From: a phage
Length of the DNA stretch: 49,526 bases
Sequence record: PZ296778.1
Strand: one strand, 5' to 3'
Positions 3,460 through 41,937 of the stretch are shown here, in pieces; within the stretch, counting starts at the first letter, position 1; every line of letters starts with the position of its first letter. A model generated the notes under the pieces. The model made no database searches and had not been told where the DNA came from. It saw nothing but the letters and a program-made list of their open reading frames with translations. The translations under genes and the position numbers were made by a program.

Positions 3460-4211
3460 TAGTGAAAGGCGTCGTTAAACAATGGCGCTTTCCTGAAGCA
3501 AGCGAGCGGCAATTGCGCCGCTCAATTCAGGAGGCGATAAGGGATCTTGTTGTGCTGATGCGCAGCAAAACAAAGGAAATGAAATTTGACGCGGACACCG
3601 AAGAAATCAACGCCGCAGAGGATGAGATTAGTAGCTTCGCGTTAAAGCTAATAGCTGGCATCGCCGCATCACTTCCGGCTATCGGTCTTGCTGTTTATAA
3701 ATTCAACGCGAAGCAATTTATTAACGTAGCCAAATCAACGGGAGGCAAGTCAAATTCAGCCGTTATCATCCTTATGGCTATTGGGGCCAATGCGAATGAG
3801 AGTTGGTATAGGACGCTATACGGTCAATGGCATGACATGACGATCGCATCTCTTCAAAAGCTATTTGGAAACATCGTGTCTGACTGGTCAACCAATATTA
3901 GATTGGCAAACTTTCGCGGAATGAGAGATAGCCAGGTTAATGAATTGGCTGGTAAGAGGTTCGCAGTGTATAGCTCTTGGGGTAAGACAAGGGCGGAAAA
4001 CATCATAGGCGCTTGGAATAGTAGACTCATGCGCCAGCGTCTTTATGATTCAAAAGTAACTCATTATTTTTGGCATGGTATGCTTGATGACAGAGAGCGA
4101 TTGCAGCATGTACAATGGGAAGGTAAGCGCATTGCGCTAGATTCTGAACATGATTTTCCTGGTGAGCCTTTCGGTTGTCGTTGTTGGGCCATACCAGATT
4201 GGAACAGTTAA
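3456..4211 (+). CDS. head morphogenesis / minor head protein (putative)
   Basis: 251 aa, start overlaps portal stop (ATGA); position typical of SPP1 gp7 / Mu F-like minor head proteins. Call is positional. Confidence 0.45.
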   Translation: MIVKGVVKQWRFPEASERQLRRSIQEAIRDLVVLMRSKTKEMKFDADTEEINAAEDEISSFALKLIAGIAASLPAIGLAVYKFNAKQFINVAKSTGGKSNSAVIILMAIGANANESWYRTLYGQWHDMTIASLQKLFGNIVSDWSTNIRLANFRGMRDSQVNELAGKRFAVYSSWGKTRAENIIGAWNSRLMRQRLYDSKVTHYFWHGMLDDRERLQHVQWEGKRIALDSEHDFPGEPFGCRCWAIPDWNS

Positions 4212-4221
4212 GAGGTATTAA

Positions 4222-5337
4222 ATGAAGGCAAAACAAAGATTTGATAGCGCCAAAGTAAAGGCGCACTTTGATGATAACGGGTTTTTAGTTGATCGCCCTA
4301 TCGTGGCGCGAATTGGTTTACAAGTCTATCAGACTCCTTTCGGTGAGCGCCGAGAATTTCGCCCTGCGTCAGAAGTATTCAAGGCCGACTCGCTCGCCAC
4401 CTTTGCAGGGAAGCCGGTCACGGTTGGTCACGTCACGGTAACGCCAGAAAACGCCGAAAAGGTTGTAGTTGGTTCTTGTGCTGGCGCTGGTGTGCCGAAC
4501 GGGATCGGCGTAGAGGTTCCGTTAAGCATTTACTCAAAACGAGCAATCGAAAGCGCAAAGAAGCGAGACACGGCGGAAATTTCAGTTGGTTATACATCGG
4601 TTGATATTGATAAACCAGGCTGGGGCAATAATAAAACTGGTGAGTACGTTTTCGATGAGGACGTTAGCGAAGACTGGAAACCTGATTCTCCTGATTGGGT
4701 TAAGTTTGATGCAATCCAGACTGAAATCAAGGTAAACCACATCGCGTTAGTTTTCCGAGGTCGAGCTGGCATTGCAAAATTAAACCTTGATAGCCAGCAA
4801 GATTTTCCGTATAGTGACGACGTTATTAACAACAAAGAGGATCAAATCATGACTGTAAAAATTAAACTGGATGGCGCTGTAGAGTTTGACGTGCCGAAAG
4901 CGGTTGCGGATCACATTGAATCACTGAAAGCTGATACCAAAGCGCAGAAAGAAAATGCTGACAGCCTGGAAGCTGAGCGAGACGCACTGCAAACCAAAGT
5001 AGATGGCATTCAGGATCAGATTGATGCCGCAGTCAAGAAGGCCAAAAAAGATGCCGAGCAATATGCTCAATTAGTGGCGGACGCTAAAGAGTTAGGCATC
5101 AAGTGCGACGGCCTGGATGCGAAAGCAATCAAGGTTGCATACATCAAGGAAGTTATGGGCAATGACGTTTCTGATAAAACTGATGCCTATATCGAAACAG
5201 CTTTCGACATCGCCAAAAACTCTGATAAAATGGCGGCGCAGCGTAAGAGCATTAAAGGTGACTCTTTCGCGAATGAAAAGCAGGATGACGCAGGTTCTAA
5301 GCTGAATCCTAACGCTCGTTTTGAGAAACTTAAATAA
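4222..5337 (+). CDS. capsid scaffolding protein (putative)
   Basis: 371 aa; C-terminal half is alanine/lysine/glutamate-rich and coiled-coil-like (AEQYAQLVADAKELGIK...); lies between head morphogenesis and capsid genes. Confidence 0.4.
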   Translation: MKAKQRFDSAKVKAHFDDNGFLVDRPIVARIGLQVYQTPFGERREFRPASEVFKADSLATFAGKPVTVGHVTVTPENAEKVVVGSCAGAGVPNGIGVEVPLSIYSKRAIESAKKRDTAEISVGYTSVDIDKPGWGNNKTGEYVFDEDVSEDWKPDSPDWVKFDAIQTEIKVNHIALVFRGRAGIAKLNLDSQQDFPYSDDVINNKEDQIMTVKIKLDGAVEFDVPKAVADHIESLKADTKAQKENADSLEAERDALQTKVDGIQDQIDAAVKKAKKDAEQYAQLVADAKELGIKCDGLDAKAIKVAYIKEVMGNDVSDKTDAYIETAFDIAKNSDKMAAQRKSIKGDSFANEKQDDAGSKLNPNARFEKLK

Positions 5338-5349
5338 GGAGTAATTAAA

Positions 5350-5859
5350 ATGGCTAAAATTGGAGCAAGTTATTTTGACACTATGGCGCGTGCGCTTCCT
5401 GGTCAGGTATCCGATACTTCGGCGTATAACATCGACGGCGCTTGTGTTCTTGACAAGGAAGACGGCATCCCAATCCTGGTTGGCGTGGCTGTTAAGCTAA
5501 AAGGAGTTGACTCAATGGGTAATAAGCTGATCGACGCTATTTCTGGTAGTGGTGATGTTCCTTATGGCGTTGGCATCCGTTCGCACTTTCAAACTACGGC
5601 TGATAATGGACGAATGGTTTATGAGGCTGGCGGCGGAATCAACGTTATGACAGAGGGCCGCGTTTGGATGGTTGGCGATGATACCGACAAGAGCAAAAAA
5701 CCATCGTATCGTGAGCCTGTAAAAATTGATGAAAACACTGGCAAGGTGAAAAGTGCTGGCACTATCAATACCAACTGGATTTACACGGGAGATAAAACCA
5801 CATTTGGAACTGGCGATGATGTGTTGACTTTGTTTGAAGTTCAGGTCTTCCCAAGCTAA
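5350..5859 (+). CDS. virion structural protein, paralog 1 (possible decoration protein)
   Basis: 169 aa; shares motifs with the next ORF (YNIDGACV / YNIDGTGV, VGIRSHF / VAIRSNI, TEGRVWMV / TRGVVWCL); strong RBS; followed by intrinsic terminator. Confidence 0.4.
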   Translation: MAKIGASYFDTMARALPGQVSDTSAYNIDGACVLDKEDGIPILVGVAVKLKGVDSMGNKLIDAISGSGDVPYGVGIRSHFQTTADNGRMVYEAGGGINVMTEGRVWMVGDDTDKSKKPSYREPVKIDENTGKVKSAGTINTNWIYTGDKTTFGTGDDVLTLFEVQVFPS

Positions 5860-6717: not shown

Positions 6718-6736
6718 GTTTAACAAAAAGTGCTAT
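6718..6736 (-). promoter_or_regulatory. conserved intergenic motif copy R1 (inverted, variant)
   Basis: GTTTAACAAAAAGTGCTAT upstream of major capsid gene; followed by hairpin plus T-run and RBS. Confidence 0.6.
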
Positions 6737-6742
6737 CATCTA

Positions 6743-10470: not shown

Positions 10471-10490
10471 CTTTTAACAAAAAGTGCTAT
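10471..10490 (-). promoter_or_regulatory. conserved intergenic motif copy R2 (inverted)
   Basis: CTTTTAACAAAAAGTGCTAT directly abutting the RBS of the G-like chaperone gene. Confidence 0.6.
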
Positions 10491-10504
10491 AAGGAGATCT
10501 TAAG

Positions 10505-23783: not shown

Positions 23784-24236
23784 ATGCACGTTATTACAGG
23801 TGAGATTCGAAAAGAGCCAAAAGTAAAGCAAATGCCTAACGGCAGCACGCTATATGTTATTGATCTTTCCGAGCGATACAAAGACCGAGAAGGAAATTGG
23901 CAGTATACAAACTATGTGTTTTTCTTTAACGCGAAAACAGACGGCCTGAATGGTTGGTATGCCGAGGCGTTCCAGGTAGGCAAGGTTGTTTCTGTTTCCT
24001 GCGATACCTTGCGAGTTGAAACGCGAGAATACAACGGAAAGATTTACAGCACCGTGCAGCCTGGCGGATTTGCAAACTTGCTATTTAGCCAGAGAGGTGA
24101 AAGCCAGCAACAATATCAGCAGCGAACGCAAGGAGGCTGGGGGCAACCACAACAGCAACAGCAACAAAATACTCAACAGCAGCCGCAGCAAAGCAATCAG
24201 CCTCCGATTGACTTTGACGATGATATACCATTCTGA
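23784..24236 (+). CDS. ssb: single-stranded DNA-binding protein
   Basis: OB-fold-like N-terminus, Gln/Gly-rich linker, C-terminal acidic tail DFDDDIPF; start at MHVITGE after RBS ggagaaaacaaa. Confidence 0.85.
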   Translation: MHVITGEIRKEPKVKQMPNGSTLYVIDLSERYKDREGNWQYTNYVFFFNAKTDGLNGWYAEAFQVGKVVSVSCDTLRVETREYNGKIYSTVQPGGFANLLFSQRGESQQQYQQRTQGGWGQPQQQQQQNTQQQPQQSNQPPIDFDDDIPF

Positions 24237-32411: not shown

Positions 32412-32461
32412 GCCCGGCATTTTGTCGGGAATAATTATTTCATCGAAACGAACGTGAGGAA

Positions 32462-34941: not shown

Positions 34942-35333
34942 TGAAGAATTTTTTACTTACACCAATCGCAATGGCGGTGATCTTGTCTGGATGTTCAAGC
35001 GTTACGCCACTGACCGGATTAATCGGCAGTAAGCCGGAAATCACAGCACAGGCTGGAGCGGAGAACGTGAAGCAGACAGTTGGCATTACAGCAAAGCAGG
35101 ACGCCAGCACAAAACAGGAAACCACAATAAAGGAATCTGCGGTTGACAAGGTGGACACGTCCAGCAAGAAGGATTTCACAACATCAACCATTCAGGCCAA
35201 TACCATCAAGGCAGACAAAATTCAGGTCGTGCAGGGTAATAACGGCAGATGGTACGATCCAGTAATCATATGCGTGGTTGTGTTTCTTGTGCTGATTTGT
35301 CTTTACTGGAGAGAAAAGAAAAAGGAGGCTTAA
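34938..35333 (+). CDS. unimolecular spanin (T1 gp11-like)
   Basis: N-terminal lipoprotein signal with lipobox (ILSGCSS) plus C-terminal transmembrane helix ([16 protein letters not shown]); last gene of the lysis cassette. Confidence 0.65.
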
Positions 35334-35350
35334 TGCCTCCTTTATTTTTA
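35323..35350. terminator. terminator after lysis cassette (likely bidirectional)
   Basis: AGGAGGC-ttaat-GCCTCCT hairpin overlapping the spanin stop, followed by a T-rich run; convergent minus-strand gene ends here. Confidence 0.6.
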
Positions 35351-35572
35351 TGCGTCGGGCCACATATGAGTTTCGTTTGTTGGCTTGTTCGATTCGTCGT
35401 ACTGCCTTACTTCAATGCTGCAAGTGTCGCCGTACATTTCTGCAATCTTGCGCTCATTTTCAACCGCCGATTGCTCACTCCAGCCTGAATCCTTATCGTA
35501 AACTGTCGGAATTTCAGAAGAAGATCCATTTGCATGATTGTATACGCGAACTACTAAAAACTTGCTGGACAT
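35348..35572 (-). CDS. hypothetical protein
   Basis: Start moved to MSSKFLVV after RBS aagga; downstream of motif copy R4. Confidence 0.4.
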   Translation of the reverse strand: MSSKFLVVRVYNHANGSSSEIPTVYDKDSGWSEQSAVENERKIAEMYGDTCSIEVRQYDESNKPTNETHMWPDA

Positions 35573-35633
35573 AATTTTTCCTTTTTGGTTGGTTCGTTTC
35601 GATGAAACAAATATACCCGACACAAGATCGGGA

Positions 35634-35653
35634 GTTTTAACAAAAAATGCTAT
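35634..35653 (-). promoter_or_regulatory. conserved intergenic motif copy R4 (variant)
   Basis: GTTTTAACAAAAAATGCTAT on the + strand; forward-oriented relative to the minus-strand early operon. Confidence 0.55.
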
Positions 35654-35770
35654 TCCATACGCTTTACTGTAACCAATAACACACCATCATCATTGCATAA
35701 AACGTGTTCAGTGGTGCTAAAAGCTCGCATATCTGAATAAAGTAGCGTAAGTAAAGCATGAATAAAATCA

Positions 35771-36166
35771 TCATGTGATATTGAATTTACGGCGCAGTGC
35801 TTCAAGATCTTGTCTATTAGCTTTTGCCTGGAACAATTCATCATCGCCCATCTCCCCTATTCTAGCTATATCCCTGATCCAGTCGTTGCGCATACCATCC
35901 AGGCTATACAATTCGAATCCGAAAGGCCGCTTTGACGATCCTTTGGACCAGTATTTTCCGCATACTCCATCTATATAACCAGCCGTCATCATTCTTGCGC
36001 AAAATTCCTTAGATGCAAGGCTGGCGAACATTCGCGGCGTAAGTCCGGCGGCCCGTGCGAGCCGCTCACATTCTCTATGCTGATAGATAAATTTGGCTAT
36101 GTGCTGCCTGTTAAACCAATCGTATGACTCACACCATTTATACAGATCAAGCAAAAACATAATCAT
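35771..36166 (-). CDS. hypothetical protein
   Basis: 131-aa ORF; start overlaps stop of the upstream P-loop gene (ATGA). Confidence 0.45.
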   Translation of the reverse strand: MIMFLLDLYKWCESYDWFNRQHIAKFIYQHRECERLARAAGLTPRMFASLASKEFCARMMTAGYIDGVCGKYWSKGSSKRPFGFELYSLDGMRNDWIRDIARIGEMGDDELFQAKANRQDLEALRRKFNIT

Positions 36167-37854
36167 CCCAGCAGTATTGGATTGACAAAAATAACACCAT
36201 TAATCACACAAACATAATTTCTTTCTTCCAGCATTGGCAGTAAGTGCCCTTCTATCCTTTTCATTACGCCAGCCTGACCAACGAAAGGTTTTACCTTTCT
36301 CGCTGATTCGTACAGGGCGCGGATATTCAGAATCCCTTTATTAGCCTTGCCGTGCCTCGTGATCAATTCAATCAATTTACCCATTTCAGCATCATCACCA
36401 GCATAACCAGAAGCATTGGCGGCGCTAATGTATGTTTTGCTCAATTCCTGAAACATGATCAACGCCTCTTGCATTGTTTCCACGTCGATCTCTTTCGACT
36501 TCTGCGGGTATCCGGCAGGATTAAACCAGTTACGGATAACATGCAGGACGGAAGCAAGCCTGATCACCTGTTTATCCATTTTACCCAGCGCACCGCGTAA
36601 CATTGTATGAGAATACTTTCCTCCGTCTGCAAGATGCGGTTCCATATCCTGGCGAGCAATGTTGAGCACTCGCATAGCTGAACGGCTTATTTTCAGCGAT
36701 ATATTTGATTCGCTCATGATGTTATGCACCAATTGATAATATTGGGCTTTCAATTCAGAATCCACCGCCTCATAGGTAGAATCACCATTTTCATCAATGA
36801 ATGAGCGACGGCCTAAGAATGATTCCTCGCGGACCAACAAAAAACGCTCACTAACACCGATGCCTCGCGATCCAGCGTCCATGATTCCGCTTATCGTTTC
36901 ATCCTGGGCTATAACGCTCATACATCCAAGCGCGCGAAAACTCATATTATTGTCAGCATTAGCGCGGGCAATTGATACGTGACCATTATCCCACGCCTTA
37001 AGCACTAACTCACTGTTAGTCTTCCTTTCGCTATTTGCATAGGTCAAGCCTAACAGACTGTTAATACTTGTTGCTTCATCAGATATTACGGCAAAGTTAC
37101 CTTGCTTGTTGTTGATTTTCGCCAAGCCTTCTGGAGTTGTATCTGAGACAGGAAAAGTTATATCACACATTTTTTCCAGTTTTTCCTCCAGATCCTCTTT
37201 TTCCTGGTATAGAGATTCCATATCAGCGCCGGATCTTTCGCTTTTCATCTCCTTTGCAAGACCTGCCAGCTTTGCCTGTATTTTCTTTCTTTCCTTGCGG
37301 CGTTGCTCGTTGATCTTCTCAACTTCCGCAATCATCGGAGCAATAGCCATGCTGTTGATCGCAGATTTACCAGTTGACGGCGGCTGGCTTGTAACGACGT
37401 AAAGCGCAGTCGGCTGATCGGTTCCGTGATAGTCAACCGTAAAGCGTCCAAGCATAGCGGCAGAAATGCAGCCGATAAAGTGCATGTAAGCCGATGATTC
37501 AGGGAATTGAACGGATCGCGCAATGCTGCGTGATAACTTGCCGACAACATCAATATCATTACCAAGAGAAATAACGGGGTAGCGATCGTGACCGCTATTC
37601 ACATCCGATTCAGGGAATTGAACGGATCGCGCAATGCTGCGTGATAACTTGCCGACAACATCAATATCATTACCAAGAGAAATAACGGGGTAGCGATCGT
37701 GACCGCTATTCACATCCTTTACGTCGCCCCAAAAGCTGGACGACTGGCGATAGCCGTTAGCCTGAATTGATACGCGAACTGGCGAAAGGTTCTGGCTTTC
37801 AGCCATAGCGATTATTTGTTGTGGAGTTAATTTGTTCGTTTCTAATGAAAACAT
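36163..37854 (-). CDS. P-loop NTPase of unknown function (DUF3987-like?)
   Basis: 563 aa; Walker A-like PSTGKS and Walker B-like FAVISDEAT; N-terminus carries a perfect 37-aa tandem duplication; RBS aaggag. Confidence 0.5.
   Translation of the reverse strand: MFSLETNKLTPQQIIAMAESQNLSPVRVSIQANGYRQSSSFWGDVKDVNSGHDRYPVISLGNDIDVVGKLSRSIARSVQFPESDVNSGHDRYPVISLGNDIDVVGKLSRSIARSVQFPESSAYMHFIGCISAAMLGRFTVDYHGTDQPTALYVVTSQPPSTGKSAINSMAIAPMIAEVEKINEQRRKERKKIQAKLAGLAKEMKSERSGADMESLYQEKEDLEEKLEKMCDITFPVSDTTPEGLAKINNKQGNFAVISDEATSINSLLGLTYANSERKTNSELVLKAWDNGHVSIARANADNNMSFRALGCMSVIAQDETISGIMDAGSRGIGVSERFLLVREESFLGRRSFIDENGDSTYEAVDSELKAQYYQLVHNIMSESNISLKISRSAMRVLNIARQDMEPHLADGGKYSHTMLRGALGKMDKQVIRLASVLHVIRNWFNPAGYPQKSKEIDVETMQEALIMFQELSKTYISAANASGYAGDDAEMGKLIELITRHGKANKGILNIRALYESARKVKPFVGQAGVMKRIEGHLLPMLEERNYVCVINGVIFVNPILLG
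37496..37717 (-). repeat. perfect 111-bp in-frame tandem duplication inside the P-loop gene
   Basis: Two identical adjacent 111-bp units (37496-37606 and 37607-37717) encoding a duplicated 37-aa segment. Confidence 0.85.
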
Positions 37855-37906
37855 TCGTTAGCTTCTCCTTTGTGGGCCGTAAATTTTAACGGCCCAATAC
37901 TACCCC

Positions 37907-37926
37907 GTTTTGTCAAAAAGTGCTAT
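37907..37926 (-). promoter_or_regulatory. conserved intergenic motif copy R5 (variant)
   Basis: GTTTTGTCAAAAAGTGCTAT; followed on the minus strand by hairpin GGGCCGT...ACGGCCC, RBS aaggag and the P-loop gene start. Confidence 0.6.
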
Positions 37927-38144
37927 TTGATCCGCTCTATTGCAACCAGAAGTCGATCAGGCTGGCGGTCGCTGTAGCATTCTCCTGTAATCCCATCCTT
38001 AAACGTAAAGTAAAGCGCCTTATGATATGAAAAACCAATCAGCCAACCTACCGCCGTTTTTTTGATGGGCCTGACTATATCGCCAGGCTTGAAAGTCTTT
38101 GTGGTAGAATGCGTTACTTTGTAACGGTTTTCACTGTTTATCAC
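37923..38144 (-). CDS. hypothetical protein
   Basis: 73-aa ORF whose stop TAG lies within motif copy R5. Confidence 0.4.
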   Translation of the reverse strand: MINSENRYKVTHSTTKTFKPGDIVRPIKKTAVGWLIGFSYHKALYFTFKDGITGECYSDRQPDRLLVAIERIK

Positions 38145-38527
38145 AGATATTTGCCCTCAAACAGATAACAGCCGCCAGCAGAGAATCCGACCTCTTCACG
38201 GTACAGGTTCCAGCGGTCGCCGCACTCATCAAAAACATAACCCGCAACGCTTCCAAGCGGTCGCCCTTTCTCGATCTGGTATCGCTTGCCCTGCTTAAAG
38301 TGCTTTTTGCACGGCATGTTATGATCTACAAACGTGCAAAGAACGGTCTTTGTGTTAATGGCGCGGTAATCATCTCGGTTTGCTGGAAGCCAACGGCTAC
38401 CCTTAACAAGCGTCTTAACCTGGAACTCTTCCACCTCGATCACATCATTACTTCCTGCAATCTTCTGATAAACCGTTTTAAAACGGCCTTTCATCAATAC
38501 GTTGGTTTCATTACAGATAACATTCAT
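38141..38527 (-). CDS. hypothetical protein
   Basis: 128-aa ORF; overlapping start/stop with the downstream gene. Confidence 0.45.
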   Translation of the reverse strand: MNVICNETNVLMKGRFKTVYQKIAGSNDVIEVEEFQVKTLVKGSRWLPANRDDYRAINTKTVLCTFVDHNMPCKKHFKQGKRYQIEKGRPLGSVAGYVFDECGDRWNLYREEVGFSAGGCYLFEGKYL

Positions 38528-38580
38528 GATTAGATCTCCTTTGTTTGTTCGATGTGATTATGCCAGGTTTTTACACCTGG

Positions 38581-38600
38581 CTTTTAACAAAAAGTGCTAT
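38581..38600 (-). promoter_or_regulatory. conserved intergenic motif copy R6
   Basis: CTTTTAACAAAAAGTGCTAT; contains the stop TAG of the methyltransferase gene on the minus strand. Confidence 0.6.
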
Positions 38601-39314
38601 TTTGAGTTTGACTCAAAGACGGCGCGAGCAAAGCCGCGCGGAGTGAGGGAGCGGATCATCTTTGTGCGCGATGACTTGCCGCCAGTTTTGGCCCAGCCTG
38701 GATTATCTTTGTCTTCCTCTTTCGGCAGGATTAAAGCGCGTGGAGGAATAACAAAGCCGTTGCCAGTCCAGAGGCACGTTTTCTTAAAATAGCGATCACG
38801 CGCCGGAATAATATCAGGGAAGTCGGGATGTTTATCATCTTCCGGCAGATAGCCAGCGTAATCGCACGGATGGAACGTATAATCAGGCTTACGCCATAAC
38901 GTTGACAACTTGCCAACCGGATTTTCGATCATGTAAGGAACACCGAAATAATCAGCTATATCAGCCGCGATTCTGCAAGTGTCGGCGGCCTCATCCTGGA
39001 ACGATGGATTCTCAAGGCGTTTTTTGGCCCAATGGCGAGATCCGCTATTTGCAAGGTCGGTGCACGGCGGAAATGCCATAATAAAATCAGGATTGCCCCA
39101 CTCATTATTGATTGCCTTAACATAAAAAGCATCGTCAATCCAGACGTTAACGTATTCGATATTCTCATGCTGTATGCGCACTGACTGGTAATCACCGTGA
39201 TCGCCACCGTCAGCATTAAAGCAAATGCACTTATAGCCATTATCAGCCCAATCTTTAACGGCTTTACCAGATCCATCAAATAGGGAGAATATTAAACCTT
39301 TATACATCGTCATT
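38597..39314 (-). CDS. DNA cytosine-5 methyltransferase (small, putative)
   Basis: Motif I LFDGSG, catalytic PC motif AFPPCTD, ENV-like motif MIENPVG; start at MTMYKG after RBS gagg; stop TAG within motif copy R6. Confidence 0.6.
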
Positions 39315-39317
39315 ACC

Positions 39318-39542
39318 TCAAAACGGAAAACAGCGCGGACAACCAGGATCGAAATCGCATCCACAATCATTAACAATCATAGTGGGATCTGCAAATATTG
39401 CGCTTGATTCAAGATCCATATCCATATCACCTAAAGCCTCATCAAGAGTCTTAATTTTATATGCCACTTCAAGAGCCGCCTCTTTATTTAGTCCGGCATC
39501 TTCTGCCATTTGAAGGCGCTCAAAAAATCCGTCTTGACTCAT
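39318..39542 (-). CDS. acidic Cys-rich small protein
   Basis: 74 aa; highly acidic; C-terminal CGCDFDPGCPRC; immediately upstream of the methyltransferase. Confidence 0.4.
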   Translation of the reverse strand: MSQDGFFERLQMAEDAGLNKEAALEVAYKIKTLDEALGDMDMDLESSAIFADPTMIVNDCGCDFDPGCPRCFPF

Positions 39543-39656
39543 CGCATAATCCCCTTAATAACAGCCAAGATAATAGCCATGCCAGCAGCAGTAACCAAAA
39601 AGCCAACCGCGCCAATAATCGAATAAAAAAAGAAATCAATAGCCTTATCTATCATT
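39540..39656 (-). CDS. small hydrophobic protein (ORF below track threshold)
   Basis: About 38 codons read by eye (MIDKAIDFFFYSIIGAVGFLVTAAGMAIILAVIKGIMR); RBS gaggtg; stop overlaps the next start (ATGA). Coordinates approximate. Confidence 0.3.
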
Positions 39657-39696
39657 TCCACCTCATTTAAAAGGCGGCAAAACGCCGCCATATTAA

Positions 39697-39924
39697 TTAA
39701 AGAGCACGCCAACTTTGAATATAGAAAGCGTTTTCTTCCAGTAATTCTTTTAACTGATCTTTATTGTATTTGCGCACCTTACCGCCTGGATGGATACCAA
39801 TAAGATAGCCGCCTTTGCCCTCGGTGATAGTGATTTGGCTAATTCCACAAGACTTATCAAGTTTTACAGCCACGCGGTGATGAGCGTCAATAGTTGACAT
39901 AATGTTTAAAACTTTTGCTTTCAT
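39697..39924 (-). CDS. hypothetical protein
   Basis: 75-aa ORF followed by a hairpin plus T-run. Confidence 0.4.
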   Translation of the reverse strand: MKAKVLNIMSTIDAHHRVAVKLDKSCGISQITITEGKGGYLIGIHPGGKVRKYNKDQLKELLEENAFYIQSWRAL

Positions 39925-40032
39925 TTAAATATCCTCAATTGAAATATGAATGGCGTCGTGCTCTTTTTCCGTCGCCGCCGTAATGGTCATTTGCAACCGC
40001 TACCATCCAGGCATTTTTGAAAATAAATAGCC

Positions 40033-40245
40033 TCATTTCTTATTTTTCATCTTAAATTTATGGCCTAGAACACCAGCACCAATATAGCCATCGTTGTATT
40101 CCATTAAATAAAGGTGAAGGCCATTATCTGAAATTACATGAGGATCTTCTTTGAGATTTCCCATTAGCGGGTATTCTTTTCCGCGCGTAAATCTCCAAGT
40201 TGAGTCATAAGTTTCTACGCATTTAAGTTTTAATTGCTTTGCCAT
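40033..40245 (-). CDS. hypothetical protein
   Basis: 70-aa ORF; overlapping start/stop with the upstream gene. Confidence 0.4.
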   Translation of the reverse strand: MAKQLKLKCVETYDSTWRFTRGKEYPLMGNLKEDPHVISDNGLHLYLMEYNDGYIGAGVLGHKFKMKNKK

Positions 40246-40442
40246 TAGATGATCTCCATGTATGTTTCAAAGCCATTTAACTTGAACAGGCCGTTTTCAC
40301 ATTTGCGAACGTTCCAAGTTAGCCCTGAGTGGTACGCCTCCATATCATCAAGGTCAATGGTGATTTCAGCACCTTTCTTAAACAAACCTTTTTCGTGAGA
40401 CTTGTCGCGCTTAACAACTTTAACATCAACCTGATTTTCCAT
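40245..40442 (-). CDS. hypothetical protein (first gene of leftward early operon)
   Basis: Start moved to MENQVDV after RBS gagga; the track start at 40565 would read through motif copy R7 and its hairpin. Confidence 0.4.
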   Translation of the reverse strand: MENQVDVKVVKRDKSHEKGLFKKGAEITIDLDDMEAYHSGLTWNVRKCENGLFKLNGFETYMEII

Positions 40443-40496
40443 CTTTAAATCCTCGTTTGTTGTCGATGCGCTTACTATACCAATCAGCAGCGCATC

Positions 40497-40517
40497 GTTT
40501 TTAACAAAAAGTGCTAT
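40497..40517 (-). promoter_or_regulatory. conserved intergenic motif copy R7
   Basis: GTTTTTAACAAAAAGTGCTAT at the head of the leftward early operon; followed on the minus strand by hairpin GATGCGCT...AGCGCATC, RBS and ATG. Confidence 0.6.
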
Positions 40518-40565
40518 TTGACGGTTAGCACCAGGATTGTGATCGAAATAATCAAAAGTAATCAT

Positions 40566-41131
40566 TCGTAATCAAATCGCGTCAAAATGATGATTGCCTT
40601 TGCAAATTTGATGAGAAAAGCAATCACGTTTAATCATTGGTTGCAGGGGAGATAGTGAAACCTTCCCCTCTTGCCTCACTTTTCCGCCTGGCTGTCAGCG
40701 GTTGTTGTCTTTTGTTCACCCCTGTTACCGATTTCAGGCGGCGTGTTTCCGCGCGGTTTTCCGGTGTATCGAAAACGGAAAAAACAAAAAAAATCCTTTA
40801 TAATACATTGAAAATAAAGATTATTTATTTATATATATCTATAATGTTTTCTTTTTGTTCTCACTGTTACAGTGCTTTTTGTTGGGTGTGGTGTTGTTGT
40901 GTGTTGGTATATATGGATAGTTGCGCGCGCGGCGGATTGCATATGTATATATACTTTTTCCGGCGGATTGCGTTAACAGCGTGAACAGAAAAATAACAGC
41001 CCTGAAATCAATAACTTGCGCATGATTTTGTAGTTTTTCGATATTGGTAACGTTTTGAATACAACAAAAACATTGACACGCACCAAATAGCTTTTATAAT
41101 GCGCCAACAGTCAACAACTGGAGGAAAGGAA
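40566..41131. promoter_or_regulatory. AT-rich non-coding control region between divergent early operons
   Basis: About 565 bp; A-tracts shared with 21200-21694, direct repeat CGGCGGATTGC twice, GT-rich tract, consensus promoter at 41073; the track ORF 40637-40984 is judged spurious. Confidence 0.5.
41073..41100 (+). promoter_or_regulatory. consensus sigma70 early promoter for the rightward early gene array
   Basis: -35 TTGACA, 16-bp spacer, -10 TATAAT; A-rich upstream tract; about 30 nt before RBS ggagga and ATG at 41132. Confidence 0.65.
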
Positions 41132-41596
41132 ATGGAACAGAAGACCACTAAGGACTATTGCGATTGGCTTCGCGAACTTGGTCGCCGCCTGGCTAGTGGC
41201 GATATTGAAGAGTATAAAATGTCACTAATTGACCTGGCCGGAATGTTAAGCGGTGACGACTGCTACAAGATCACGCGCAGTTCATCCTACAGCCGGACCA
41301 TTATCAACCGCGTTCCAGAAGTAAGGGCCGCAGGTCGGGTAAGCATCAAGGTAGAGGAAACGGAAGATGATAAATTTTACGTTTTCCGCATGGTCCGCGA
41401 ATCGAAAAGGAAAATCATCACACCCGAAGAATTGCCAGCCATCAAGGCAAGGGCGATCAAAAAGTTTGCCGATCGCATACTGGCAGCAATCCCGAATATC
41501 GTTGACCTGGAAGGGGATAAACTGGCTGGGGCTTGCGAGGGCGTAAGCCGCTACCAGGATATGATCCGCGAAATCATCAAAGAGGAAGAGCAATGA
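41132..41596 (+). CDS. hypothetical protein (first rightward early gene)
   Basis: Start at MEQKTT after RBS ggagga, about 30 nt downstream of a consensus sigma70 promoter. Confidence 0.5.
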   Translation: MEQKTTKDYCDWLRELGRRLASGDIEEYKMSLIDLAGMLSGDDCYKITRSSSYSRTIINRVPEVRAAGRVSIKVEETEDDKFYVFRMVRESKRKIITPEELPAIKARAIKKFADRILAAIPNIVDLEGDKLAGACEGVSRYQDMIREIIKEEEQ

Positions 41597-41881: not shown

Positions 41882-41937
41882 GCCAGGCGCAAAGCCTGGC
41901 ATAATAGCCTCATCGAAACGAGATTGAGGAAACAAAA

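What the first reader, a model, noticed from the sequence alone, without database searches (positions are those of the whole stretch)
35348..40517. Leftward early operon with likely accessory or anti-defence content
About 12 co-oriented minus-strand genes are transcribed away from the 40566-41131 control region. They are punctuated by four copies of the conserved motif plus hairpin and include a small cytosine-5 methyltransferase, an acidic Cys-rich 74-aa protein, a roughly 38-aa membrane peptide, a 563-aa P-loop NTPase and several ORFs with no recognisable motifs. None has an obvious role in replication, virion structure or lysis. Early-expressed blocks of this kind in virulent phages often hold host-takeover or anti-defence functions, so this is the most plausible place in the window for an undescribed system. 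Each gene should be treated as a separate candidate.
Basis: partly seen in the sequence, partly recalled or inferred. Interest (0 to 1): 0.6.

Follow-up and report, generated by a model that had tools for sequence, protein, structure and literature searches.

The report
Leftward early gene arm of a T1-like phage
This is the well-conserved leftward non-structural arm of a T1-like coliphage: five small promoter-delimited gene units that mix DNA-metabolism genes (a helicase, a DNA methyltransferase) with swappable small genes of unknown function, so it is mostly ordinary, apart from one small acidic protein that carries the tail motif of the bacterial single-strand DNA-binding protein.

Summary
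In detail: 13 co-oriented minus-strand genes (35348-40442) and four copies of a 21-nt repeat plus hairpin. The window is a Warwickvirus (Drexlerviridae), about 99.5% identical to phage orkinos; 84 deposited genomes carry the block.

It is not one operon. It is five units, most with their own cassette: repeat, hairpin, −10 element, conserved leader. The repeat is published for phage TLS with its function left open. Here it is rigidly phased with a −10 element. In published Bas11 work, a fragment starting inside it drove expression in uninfected E. coli. It is also a recombination breakpoint: this genome lost about 1.3 kb between two copies.

Gene content is mixed.
- The 563-aa NTPase is a DUF3987 (MCM-like) helicase with a coupled winged-helix partner, which contradicts "no replication role".
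- The methyltransferase has a DNMT3-like cytosine-5 fold.
- The first gene belongs to the Gp54 family, a trigger of CapRel immunity. It is identical to SECphi27 Gp19, which does not trigger.
- Six small genes stay unassigned, and there were no PADLOC hits.

The most novel lead is the acidic 74-aa protein. Its family ends in an SSB-like acidic [I/L/V/F]-P-[F/W] tip. Anti-defence function remains unproven.

The parts
40499..40519 (-). 21-nt repeat AAATAGCACTTTTTGTTAAAA, copy 1, promoter cassette of unit 1. The hairpin at 40464-40497 encloses the -10 TATAGT at 40474-40479. This is also the junction of a ~1.3-kb deletion relative to all relatives.
40245..40442 (-). g01, 65 aa, Gp54-family small protein (PF25180, 'phage antiviral trigger protein Gp54').
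   Evidence: Pfam 128.6 bits against a cut-off of 27. PDB 9axb Gp54 E=4e-17. 53% identical to Bas11 Gp54. 100% identical to SECphi27 Gp19.
40033..40245 (-). g02, 70 aa, basic, unknown function. Variable: found only in close relatives and a few others.
39935..40036 (-). g03, 33 aa, unknown function (phrog_32259). ATGA overlap with g02.
39697..39924 (-). g04, 75 aa, basic, unknown function (phrog_4344). Detected in 44 of 64 related loci, but divergent.
39673..39689 (-). Intrinsic terminator-like hairpin GGCGGCGTTTTGCCGCC followed by TTTT, right after g04. It ends unit 1.
39539..39655 (-). g05, 38-aa hydrophobic peptide with SD GAGGTGG. Detected only in close relatives.
39318..39542 (-). g06, 74 aa, pI 4.05. 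It has a conserved helical core (AGLN..ALGDMDMD.ES), a CxC...CxxC cluster and a C-terminal FPF. It is a candidate mimic of the SSB C-terminal tip.
38597..39313 (-). g07, 238 aa, compact DNA cytosine-5 methyltransferase with a DNMT3-like fold. Invariant motifs: I F-DGSG, IV FPPCT, VI ENPV.
   Evidence: AF2 pLDDT 91.4. Foldseek DNMT3A/B E~1e-7 and 3g7u. Invariant motifs. PHROG 757.
38582..38602 (-). 21-nt repeat, copy 2, promoter cassette of unit 3. It holds the TAG stop of g07. Hairpin 38562-38581, -10 CATAAT 38557-38562 preceded by TG.
38141..38527 (-). g08, 128 aa, unknown function. Its C-terminal ~70 aa are strongly conserved, and it is detected in 62 of 64 related loci.
37923..38144 (-). 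g09, 73 aa, GTG start overlapping the g08 stop. Unknown function, divergent.
37908..37928 (-). 21-nt repeat, copy 3 (TTGACA variant), promoter cassette of unit 4. It holds the TAG stop of g09. The hairpin at 37873-37896 encloses the -10 TAAAAT at 37883-37888.
36163..37854 (-). g10, 563 aa, DUF3987 P-loop protein (SF6/MCM-like helicase family). Walker A PPSTGKS, Walker B FAVISDE, a coiled-coil insert, and a C-terminal region matching phrog_7327.
   Evidence: Pfam PF13148 152.7 bits. PHROG 2373 'DNA helicase'. Literature. Motifs.
37496..37717 (-). Perfect 2 x 111-bp tandem duplication inside g10 (residues 47-83 repeated as 84-120). In frame. Not seen in any related record inspected.
35771..36166 (-). 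g11, 131 aa, winged-helix protein. ATGA overlap with g10. Detected in 63 of 64 related loci alongside g10.
35650..35844 (-). g12, 64 aa, unknown function (phrog_9539). It overlaps the 3' end of g11 by 74 nt in another frame.
35635..35655 (-). 21-nt repeat, copy 4, promoter cassette of unit 5. It holds the TAG stop of g12. Hairpin 35616-35632, -10 TATATT 35610-35615, leader CATCGAAACGAA.
35348..35572 (-). g13, 74 aa, acidic (pI 4.7), unknown function (phrog_27210). A single-gene cassette restricted to Warwickvirus and a few others.
35321..35343 (.). Bidirectional terminator hairpin between the lysis cassette (+ strand) and g13 (- strand).

Best explanation
The region is the leftward non-structural arm of a Warwickvirus (T1-like siphovirus). 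It is a string of five short transcription units, not one operon:
- U1: g01-g04, ending at a terminator
- U2: g05-g07
- U3: g08-g09
- U4: g10-g12
- U5: g13, ending at a bidirectional terminator

Four of the five units start with the family-wide cassette. Its parts, in order, are:
- the stop codon of the previous gene;
- the 21-nt repeat aaATAGCACnnnTTGnTAAAA;
- a 19-nt spacer carrying a hairpin;
- a -10 hexamer, often preceded by TG;
- a conserved leader, CATCGAAACGAA;
- an SD and the ATG.
Host RNA polymerase reads these cassettes without phage factors. This was shown for the Bas11 copy and is inferred for the copies here.

Because the ~65-90-bp cassettes are repeated, homologous recombination between them deletes, inserts or swaps the gene units they flank. 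This is the same logic as the PeSL cassettes of T4-like phages.

The cargo is mixed. A conserved DNA-metabolism core comprises:
- a DUF3987 MCM-like helicase, translationally coupled to a winged-helix protein; the likely role is replication or origin handling (inferred);
- a compact DNMT3-like C5 DNA methyltransferase; the likely role is self-methylation of phage DNA against restriction (inferred);
- a highly conserved acidic partner gene, g06.
Around that core sit variable small genes. One is a Gp54-family beta-barrel, a family that one bacterial immune sensor, CapRel-SJ46, can recognise.
For: Identity and synteny:
- The block is 99.6% identical to orkinos, and 84 records cover at least 80% of it.
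- The same gene order appears in Bas04, Bas11 and SECphi27.

Unit structure:
- Gene overlaps and gaps.
- Terminators.
- Four repeat copies with stable hairpins.

Promoter nature of the cassette:
- In 309 unique cassettes, a -10-like hexamer lies exactly 19 nt after the repeat in 80%.
- At least 5 of 6 positions match TATAAT in 85%, against 12% of shuffles. TG precedes it in 36%, against 10%.
- There is a conserved leader, and 291 of 395 copies contain the upstream stop codon.
- Published primer TZ-58 starts inside the repeat upstream of Bas11 gene 54. That ~75-nt fragment expressed Gp54-FLAG in uninfected E. coli, and escape mutations in it lowered expression.

Recombination:
- The window differs from orkinos by a ~1285-bp deletion and a ~1434-bp insertion, both bounded by repeat copies.
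- 9 of 85 alignment-breakpoint clusters fall on repeats, against 2.5% expected; permutation p = 0.0002.
- PeSL properties come from PMC2839356 and PMC4122927.

Cargo:
- Pfam Gp54 and DUF3987; PDB 9axb.
- DUF3987 literature.
- MTase fold.
- g11 winged helix.
- Presence/absence matrix.
Against: - No transcript data for this phage or any Warwickvirus were found, so promoter use, timing ('early') and terminator efficiency in the window are inferred.
- The TTGnTA hexamer of the repeat lies 22 nt from the -10, not the 17 nt of a standard sigma-70 promoter. How RNA polymerase uses the repeat is therefore unknown.
- U2 (g05-g07) has no repeat cassette in this genome and may depend on read-through of the g04 terminator.
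- Not every indel lies at a repeat. For example, an extra gene between g01 and g02 in Bas04 does not.
- The phage also has a separate 665-aa helicase next to its primase, so the replicative role of DUF3987 is not established.
- Six of the 13 proteins (g02, g03, g04, g09, g12, g13) have no assignable function, and neither does g08.
Confidence: 0.7

Rival explanations
1. The block is a coherent anti-defence or host-takeover island. Most of its small genes are inhibitors of bacterial immune systems, expressed together immediately after injection.
For: - The block contains many small ORFans, several of them acidic (g06 pI 4.05, g13 pI 4.66).
- Some genes are variable between relatives.
- It contains a DNA methyltransferase.
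- Bas04 and Bas05, which are Warwickviruses, are reported as highly resistant to RM systems for unexplained reasons.
- The cassette promoter is active without phage factors, which fits early expression.
Against: - No hit to any PADLOC model, and no PHROG with an anti-defence label.
- The largest and most conserved genes are DNA-metabolism types.
- The only gene with an experimentally studied family, Gp54, is sensed by immunity rather than blocking it.
- The genes sit in separate units and vary independently.
- The BASEL authors found no simple link between gene content and RM resistance.
Confidence: 0.15
2. The block is essentially a replication module. The DUF3987 helicase, the winged-helix protein, g08/g09 and g06 form the phage replisome-loading machinery, and the other small genes are passengers.
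For: - g08, g10 and g11 are present in nearly all 60+ related loci.
- DUF3987 proteins are proposed replicative helicases with a wHTH, and one member has shown helicase activity.
- g10 and g11 are translationally coupled.
- The phage has no DNA polymerase and must recruit host enzymes.
- g06 carries an SSB-like tip.
Against: - The primase, the second helicase, the SSB and the recombination genes lie 9-15 kb away on other strands or units.
- DUF3987 proteins are usually adjacent to a primase, which is not the case here.
- No origin-like iterons were found next to g10-g11.
- g01-g05 and g13 are dispensable in relatives.
Confidence: 0.15
3. Many of the small ORFs (g03, g05, g12 and similar) are not genes, and the repeats are terminators or 'stoperator'-type repressor sites rather than promoters.
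For: - g03 (33 aa) and g05 (38 aa) are very short, and g12 overlaps g11 by 74 nt.
- The TLS paper raised stoperator and enhancer-site ideas for the repeat.
- Read on the opposite strand, the hairpin followed by TTTTAACAAAAA looks like an intrinsic terminator.
Against: - g03 and g12 match PHROG families over their full length, and g12 is conserved as protein at 40-77% identity across the family.
- g05 has a strong SD.
- The repeat is phased with a -10 element at a fixed distance in 80% of 309 cassettes.
- A fragment beginning in the repeat was sufficient for expression in E. coli.
- No repressor gene is known in these virulent phages.
Confidence: 0.05

Closest known systems
PeSL (promoter-early stem-loop) cassettes of T4-like myoviruses (Arbiol et al. 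2010, PMC2839356; Comeau et al. 2014, PMC4122927)
   Same: [quoted passage not shown]
- An AT-rich stretch is followed by a -35-like element.
- The stem-loop lies either between the -35 and the -10 or overlaps the -10. Both layouts occur here.
- The cassettes flank small ORFans.
- Indels between close relatives are bounded by the cassettes.
   Different: - The virus family is different: a ~50-kb siphovirus.
- The repeat sequence is different.
- The -35-like hexamer is 22 nt from the -10 instead of the consensus spacing.
- Terminator activity of the stem-loop and mini-circle formation are untested.
- The cassettes also precede conserved genes such as the helicase.
21-nt intergenic direct repeats of phage TLS (aaATAGCACnnnTTGnTAAAA; PMC11447400)
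   Same: - The sequence is the same.
- The orientation follows transcription.
- The distance to the start codon is the same: ~76 nt from the repeat start there, and a median of 56 nt from the repeat end here.
- The copy number is similar: 18 in TLS, 17 here.
   Different: That paper left the function open (stoperator, enhancer site or UP element). Added here are the phasing with a -10 element, the conserved leader, the link to a published expression construct, and the breakpoint enrichment.
Gp54 of phage Bas11, activator of the CapRel-SJ46 toxin-antitoxin defence (PMC11578894; PDB 9axb, 9erv)
   Same: - g01 matches Pfam PF25180 far above its threshold and aligns end to end with 9axb.
- It has the same size and the same position as first or second gene of the leftward arm, behind a repeat cassette.
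   Different: - It is only 53% identical to Gp54 of Bas11.
- It is identical to SECphi27 Gp19, which did not activate CapRel-SJ46.
- The function of the family for the phage itself is unknown.
DUF3987 / superfamily 6 (MCM-like) helicases of phages and mobile elements, e.g. AgaPH (PMC4889955, PMC11724360)
   Same: - Pfam DUF3987 covers residues 118-467.
[quoted passage not shown]
- There is an extra C-terminal region where the family has a winged helix.
   Different: - It is not fused or adjacent to a primase.
- There is no PriCT domain.
- It has an N-terminal domain of unknown type, duplicated in part in this genome.
- A separate winged-helix protein (g11) is encoded immediately downstream.
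DNMT3-type and prophage CP-933R (3g7u) DNA cytosine-5 methyltransferases
   Same: - It has a Rossmann MTase fold with motifs I (FxGxG), IV (PC) and VI (ENV), and a very small target-recognition region.
   Different: - It is only 238 aa.
- The window protein does not reach the Pfam PF00145 threshold.
- The protein ends right after a motif IX-like RSLTPRGFARAV, and no clear motif X was found.
- Its specificity and activity are unknown.
C-terminal tip of bacterial SSB (…DFDDDIPF), the docking peptide for SSB-interacting proteins (PMC5872125, PMC10164576)
   Same: - The g06 family ends in an acidic stretch plus [I/L/V/F]-P-[F/W] at or next to the carboxyl terminus. Examples are KFDDGIPF, FDFDQLPF, DDCIPF and DYDDFIPW; the window has RCFPF.
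- The tip follows a variable, acidic linker.
   Different: - g06 has no OB fold and is not an SSB.
- A few members add a final W or end in ISF or EPF.
- Four longer relatives carry the core without the tip.
- Binding to any SSB partner is untested.

Membership tests
Gp54 family (Pfam PF25180) | Match to the family HMM above the gathering score | tested here: met
   128.6 bits against a cut-off of 27, E=7e-38, covering profile positions 1-65 of 65
Gp54 family (Pfam PF25180) | Sequence homology to the solved Gp54 of Bas11 | tested here: met
   9axb_A E=4.4e-17 over the full length; 53% identity
Gp54 family (Pfam PF25180) | Activates CapRel-SJ46 | not testable with these tools
   The protein is 100% identical to SECphi27 Gp19. 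The paper reports that Gp19 did not cause toxicity with CapRel-SJ46. Activation is therefore not expected.
DNA cytosine-5 methyltransferase | Motif I (FxGxG, AdoMet binding), motif IV (PC, catalytic Cys) and motif VI (ENV) | tested here: met
   F12-D-G14-S-G16, P83-C84 and E130-N131-P-V133 are invariant or nearly invariant in 50 homologues
DNA cytosine-5 methyltransferase | C5-MTase fold | tested here: met
   AF2 pLDDT 91.4, pTM 0.89. Foldseek top 50 hits are DNMT3A/3B/3C catalytic domains plus 3g7u, E 1e-7 to 1e-5, probability 1.00, TM about 0.45-0.55.
DNA cytosine-5 methyltransferase | Match to Pfam PF00145 above the gathering score | tested here: not met
   No Pfam hit for the window protein. 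Only 4 of 11 relatives hit, with E about 0.009 at best. The profile against PDB sequences gave E about 0.1.
DNA cytosine-5 methyltransferase | Motifs IX and X at the C-terminus | tested here: inconclusive
   RSLTPRGFARAV resembles motif IX, but the protein ends 6 residues later. No GN(A/S)V-type motif X was recognised by eye.
DNA cytosine-5 methyltransferase | Methylates DNA | not testable with these tools
   Needs bisulfite or nanopore analysis of virion DNA.
DUF3987 / SF6 helicase | Match to Pfam PF13148 above the gathering score | tested here: met
   152.7 bits against a cut-off of 27, residues 118-467
DUF3987 / SF6 helicase | [quoted passage not shown] | tested here: met
   PPSTGKS and FAVISDE are present and invariant in 12 homologues
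DUF3987 / SF6 helicase | [quoted passage not shown] | not tested
   Residues 478-562 match a separate PHROG, but no structure was predicted for g10.
DUF3987 / SF6 helicase | Fused to, or immediately downstream of, a primase | tested here: not met
   In the syntenic Bas04 genome the primase lies ~9 kb away, next to a different helicase.
PeSL-type mobile regulatory cassette | Repeated intergenic cassette with promoter elements and a stem-loop between the -35 and -10, or over the -10 | tested here: met
   definition
PeSL-type mobile regulatory cassette | Consensus sigma-70 promoter (TTGACA, ~17 nt, TATAAT) | tested here: not met
   TTGnTA lies 22 nt upstream of the -10 in 80% of 309 cassettes. 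The standard promoter scan does not detect them.
PeSL-type mobile regulatory cassette | Indels between close relatives bounded by cassettes | tested here: met
   A deletion and an insertion relative to orkinos are bounded by repeats. Breakpoint enrichment p=0.0002.
PeSL-type mobile regulatory cassette | Stem-loop terminates transcription; mini-circles form | not testable with these tools
   Needs reporter assays and inverse PCR.
Winged-helix DNA-binding proteins (g11) | Winged-helix fold | tested here: met
SSB C-terminal tip-bearing proteins (g06) | Acidic residues followed by a hydrophobic-Pro-Phe carboxyl terminus | tested here: met
   19 of 23 short family representatives end in [ILVF]P[FW]. 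This includes 9 of the 10 that matched the profile only through the N-terminal core. The window protein ends in FPF.
SSB C-terminal tip-bearing proteins (g06) | Binds the SSB-Ct pocket of SSB-interacting proteins | not testable with these tools
   Needs pull-down, ITC or complex prediction.
Known anti-phage defence or candidate systems (PADLOC) | Match to any PADLOC model | tested here: not met
   0 hits for 10 proteins of the block

The most novel reading that the evidence does not exclude
g06 and its small family are a previously undescribed class of phage proteins that copy the C-terminal docking tip of bacterial SSB. The family has about 30 clusters at 50% identity among 1.84 billion proteins, nearly all 60-90 aa. 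Its members have an acidic stretch ending in [I/L/V/F]-P-[F/W]-COOH, attached to their own conserved helical core.

Such a protein could work in one of two ways:
- as a decoy, occupying the SSB-tip pocket of host enzymes such as ExoI, RecQ, PriA, RecG or Ung; this would be host takeover or protection of phage DNA;
- as an adaptor, bringing a host factor such as the chi subunit of Pol III to a phage protein; these phages have no polymerase of their own.
Probability: 0.3. Interest if true: 0.65.

Novelty: new member of a known kind. Interest (0 to 1): 0.38.

Why it matters
- It shows that the "early block of unknowns" in T1-like phages is a hybrid: a conserved DNA-metabolism core inside a shuffling zone of promoter-flanked gene cassettes. 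Follow-up should therefore be gene by gene.
[quoted passage not shown] The proposed answer is that the repeat is the upstream half of a host-RNA-polymerase promoter cassette and a hotspot for modular recombination.
- It explains how Gp54-region deletions that escape CapRel could arise.
- It points to one specific small protein, g06, as a possible mimic of the SSB tail. If confirmed, that would be a new way for a phage to tap into or block the host SSB interaction network.

Tried and rejected
- PADLOC on 10 proteins gave no hits. NCBIfam gave no hits.
- Rfam at E<=1 over 35000-41300 gave only one chance-level match.
- Sequence searches against the PDB found nothing meaningful for g10 as a single sequence or profile, for the g11 profile or for the g08 profile. 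Pfam on the g08 family gave nothing credible.
- I tested whether g01, g02, g04, g08, g09, g12 and g13 are paralogous small beta-barrels sharing an FKxGxxY-like motif. hhalign between family alignments gave no pair with probability of 20% or more, so this is rejected.
- I tested whether g06 and g07 form an obligate pair. Outside Drexlerviridae, g07 homologues in a Jersey-like phage contig and in a lambdoid nin region have unrelated upstream genes. The pairing is therefore family-specific synteny, not a general two-gene module.
- I considered a programmed frameshift fusing g06 to the upstream extension of the g07 ORF. In Bas11 and SECphi27 the MTase is annotated starting after g06 with no overlap, so this is rejected.
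- The 106-aa ORF 40245-40565 is not a real fusion protein. Its upstream part reads through the repeat and cassette, and relatives annotate 65-66 aa.
- A literature search for the repeat as a text string found only unrelated primers. The repeat was found described under another search.
- A search for published SSB-tail mimics from phages found none.
- No transcriptome of a T1-like phage was found.

Full report
**What the window is.** The 5.2-kb region matches 196 phage records. 84 of them cover at least 80% of it, and the best is Escherichia phage orkinos at 99.6%. Orkinos belongs to Drexlerviridae, Tempevirinae, Warwickvirus. The window is therefore a T1-like virulent siphovirus genome. The same gene order is present in the curated BASEL genomes Bas04 (FritzSarasin) and Bas11 (JohannLBurckhardt) and in SECphi27.

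**Checking the observation.** ORF listing and start-site inspection give 13 co-oriented minus-strand genes between 35348 and 40442. All of them except the 38-aa peptide match PHROG families. That peptide has a GAGGTGG Shine-Dalgarno sequence and is annotated in Bas04.

The 21-nt repeat AAATAGCACTTTTTGTTAAAA occurs four times in the block and 17 times in the window with up to 3 mismatches. Only 0.01 matches are expected by chance. Each in-block copy is followed by a hairpin of -12.5 to -17 kcal/mol with z-scores of -2.4 to -4.75.

The ORF that the tool lists as 106 aa (40245-40565) is an artefact. Its first 41 codons (40 residues plus the in-frame ATG at 40443-40445) run through the repeat cassette, and relatives annotate 65-66 aa.

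**Architecture.** Gene spacing shows tight translational coupling within groups:
- g01/g02 overlap by 1 nt;
- g02/g03, g05/g06, g08/g09 and g10/g11 share ATGA or GTGA overlaps;
- gaps of 68-77 nt occur only where a repeat cassette sits.

A minus-strand intrinsic terminator follows g04 at 39673-39689. A bidirectional one at 35321-35343 separates g13 from the convergent lysis genes.

The block is therefore five units: g01-g04, g05-g07, g08-g09, g10-g12 and g13. In this genome the second unit has no cassette of its own. Its start codon lies 17 nt after the terminator, so it may depend on read-through.

**What the repeat is.** The repeat is already published. The 2024 reannotation of phage TLS reports 18 intergenic copies of aaATAGCACnnnTTGnTAAAA, oriented with transcription about 76 nt upstream of start codons. 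It notes similar repeats in T1, Rtp and Rogue1. It proposes stoperator, enhancer-site or UP-element roles, and it lists the function as an open question.

I collected 309 unique cassettes from the window and 64 related loci:
- A -10-like hexamer lies exactly 19 nt after the repeat in 80% of them.
- It matches TATAAT at 5 or more of 6 positions in 85%, against 12% in shuffled controls.
- It has A2 and T6 in 96%, against 32%.
- It is preceded by TG in 36%, against 10%.

A conserved leader (C.CATCGAAACGAA..G.GGA) follows. 291 of 395 copies contain the stop codon of the upstream reading frame. The hairpin lies either in the 19-nt spacer or encloses the -10.

There is also experimental support from the literature. 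In the CapRel study, Bas11 escape clones 3 and 4 carried mutations "immediately upstream" of gene 54. Gp54-FLAG "with its native promoter" was expressed from pBR322 in uninfected E. coli, and the mutations lowered its expression. The phage-specific part of cloning primer TZ-58 begins TAGCACTTTTTGTTAAAACCAGTCAGATGC. That sequence lies inside the repeat upstream of Bas11 gene 54. So a fragment of about 75 nt, running from the repeat to the start codon, is a promoter for host RNA polymerase.

That the four copies in the window behave the same way is an inference. How the repeat contributes is unknown, because its TTGnTA hexamer is 22 nt from the -10 rather than about 17.

**The cassettes as recombination points.** Compared with orkinos, the window lacks about 1285 bp carrying four small genes. 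The junction lies within the 65 bp (40455-40519) shared by two cassettes. The window also carries about 1434 bp that orkinos lacks, again bounded by repeat copies. No deposited genome has the 40499 junction in one piece.

Over 33 related loci, 9 of 85 breakpoint clusters fall on a repeat. Only 2.5% of positions do so by chance, giving a permutation p of 0.0002.

This is the behaviour described for the PeSL cassettes of T4-like phages. Those run from the stop codon to the SD, carry their stem-loop between the -35 and the -10 or over the -10, and mediate deletion and insertion of ORFans. The large gene-54-region deletions seen in Bas11 escape clones could plausibly arise the same way, but their junctions were not available to me.

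**Gene content: the conserved part.** g10 is a DUF3987 protein (152.7 bits) with Walker A and B motifs. DUF3987 proteins have been classified as MCM-related SF6 replicative helicases with a C-terminal winged helix. One member, AgaPH, was shown to unwind DNA 5'->3'.

These phages have a primase, a second helicase, an SSB and recombination genes, but no polymerase. A replication or origin-handling role for g10-g11 is therefore likely but not shown.

g07 has no Pfam hit but carries invariant FxGxG, PC and ENV motifs. Its model is confident (pLDDT 91.4). The best structural matches are the DNMT3A/3B catalytic domains and prophage MTase 3g7u, with E about 1e-7. Its family has about 2,000 members and also occurs in other phage types.

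The BASEL paper reports that Bas04 and Bas05 are unusually RM-resistant, but it found no simple link to methyltransferase genes.

**Gene content: the variable part.** g01 belongs to the Gp54 family. Gp54 of Bas11 directly activates the CapRel-SJ46 defence. The window's allele is 100% identical to SECphi27 Gp19, which did not activate it.

g02, g03, g05 and g13 occur mainly in close relatives. They, g04, g09 and g12 have no assignable function. No protein of the block hits PADLOC or NCBIfam. The small families are not detectably related to each other.

**The most interesting lead.** g06 (74 aa, pI 4.05) is the best-conserved small protein of the block. Apart from the phage SSB (…DFDDDIPF), it is the only ORF of 60 aa or more in the window that ends in PF.

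An exhaustive HMMER search found only 30 representative clusters. Their common features are:
- a helical core, AGLN.E…ALGDMDMD.ES;
- a variable acidic linker, with or without a CxC…CxxC cluster;
- a C-terminus of acidic residues plus [I/L/V/F]-P-[F/W], for example KFDDGIPF, FDFDQLPF, DDCIPF and DYDDFIPW.

Nine of the ten hits that matched only through the N-terminal core still end this way, so the tip is not an artefact of the alignment.

The tip of bacterial SSB (DDDIPF) is the docking peptide for many genome-maintenance proteins (PMC5872125, PMC10164576). I found no description of a non-SSB phage protein that copies it.

I rate the idea that g06 is a decoy or an adaptor for SSB-interacting proteins at about 0.3. 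Points against it:
- some members add a terminal W or deviate from the pattern;
- the window has FPF rather than IPF;
- four longer relatives lack the tip;
- nothing has been tested.

**Verdict.** The region is an ordinary, widely sequenced part of Warwickvirus genomes. It is best described as a conserved DNA-metabolism core embedded in a cassette-shuffling zone, not as an operon or a defence-related system.

Its value lies in three things:
- it links the published "mystery" repeat to promoter function and to modular recombination;
- it recognises the Gp54-family gene;
- it points to the g06 SSB-tip lead.

Noticed in passing
window 37496-37717: There is a perfect 111-bp tandem duplication inside the DUF3987 helicase gene. 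It adds 37 in-frame residues (47-83 repeated as 84-120) just before the ATPase domain. None of the 12 listed phage records (67 matched) or 61 IMG/VR loci shows it. It could be a real recent mutation, for example selected in the laboratory or by a host defence, or an assembly artefact.
   Followed up: partly
window 40455-40519, versus L001 7497-7561 and 8803-8866: This genome lacks four small genes (orkinos_61-64, about 1.3 kb) that orkinos, Bas04 and SECphi27 carry in some form between the non-coding region and the Gp54 homologue; no matching record has the junction uninterrupted. The junction lies inside the shared promoter cassette. As a result the Gp54 homologue is the first gene of the arm here.
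   Followed up: yes
window 6718-6738 and 10472-10492 (minus strand): Two repeat copies sit in intergenic gaps of the plus-strand structural module but point the opposite way. The one at 10472-10492 faces a strong bidirectional terminator about 50 nt away, so it would make only a very short antisense RNA if active.
   Followed up: no
window 40566-41070: About 500 bp have no conserved ORF, between the first leftward cassette and a perfect consensus sigma-70 promoter (TTGACA-16-TATAAT, 41073-41100) that drives the rightward arm. The stretch alternates AT-rich and GC-rich segments. It could hold an origin or other control elements.
   Followed up: no
window 35771-35844: g12 overlaps the 3' end of g11 by 74 nt in a different frame. 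Both reading frames are conserved as protein across the family. The overlap corresponds to a C-terminal extension of g11 that some relatives lack.
   Followed up: partly
window: ~30 nt after each -10 element, e.g. 35590-35609, 41906-41925, 32436-32455: Many cassettes share a conserved 5' leader, CATCGAAACGAA…GAGGA, between the predicted transcription start and the start codon. CGAAACGA is present in 91 of 253 aligned cassettes. It may be a translation or RNA-stability element.
   Followed up: partly
window 23784-24236: The phage's own SSB ends in IDFDDDIPF, ending in the same DFDDDIPF tip as E. coli SSB. The phage SSB probably plugs into the host SSB interaction network as well.
   Followed up: no
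L068 (E. coli GCA_053566455.1 contig, 5001-5747) and L066 (metagenome contig, 4001-4684): Close homologues of the compact C5 methyltransferase occur in two other settings. One is a lambdoid prophage nin region, next to Dam, NinG and RusA. The other is a contig with PolA, SNF2 and a tail spike, so probably a different phage family. The gene therefore moves between phage families.
   Followed up: partly
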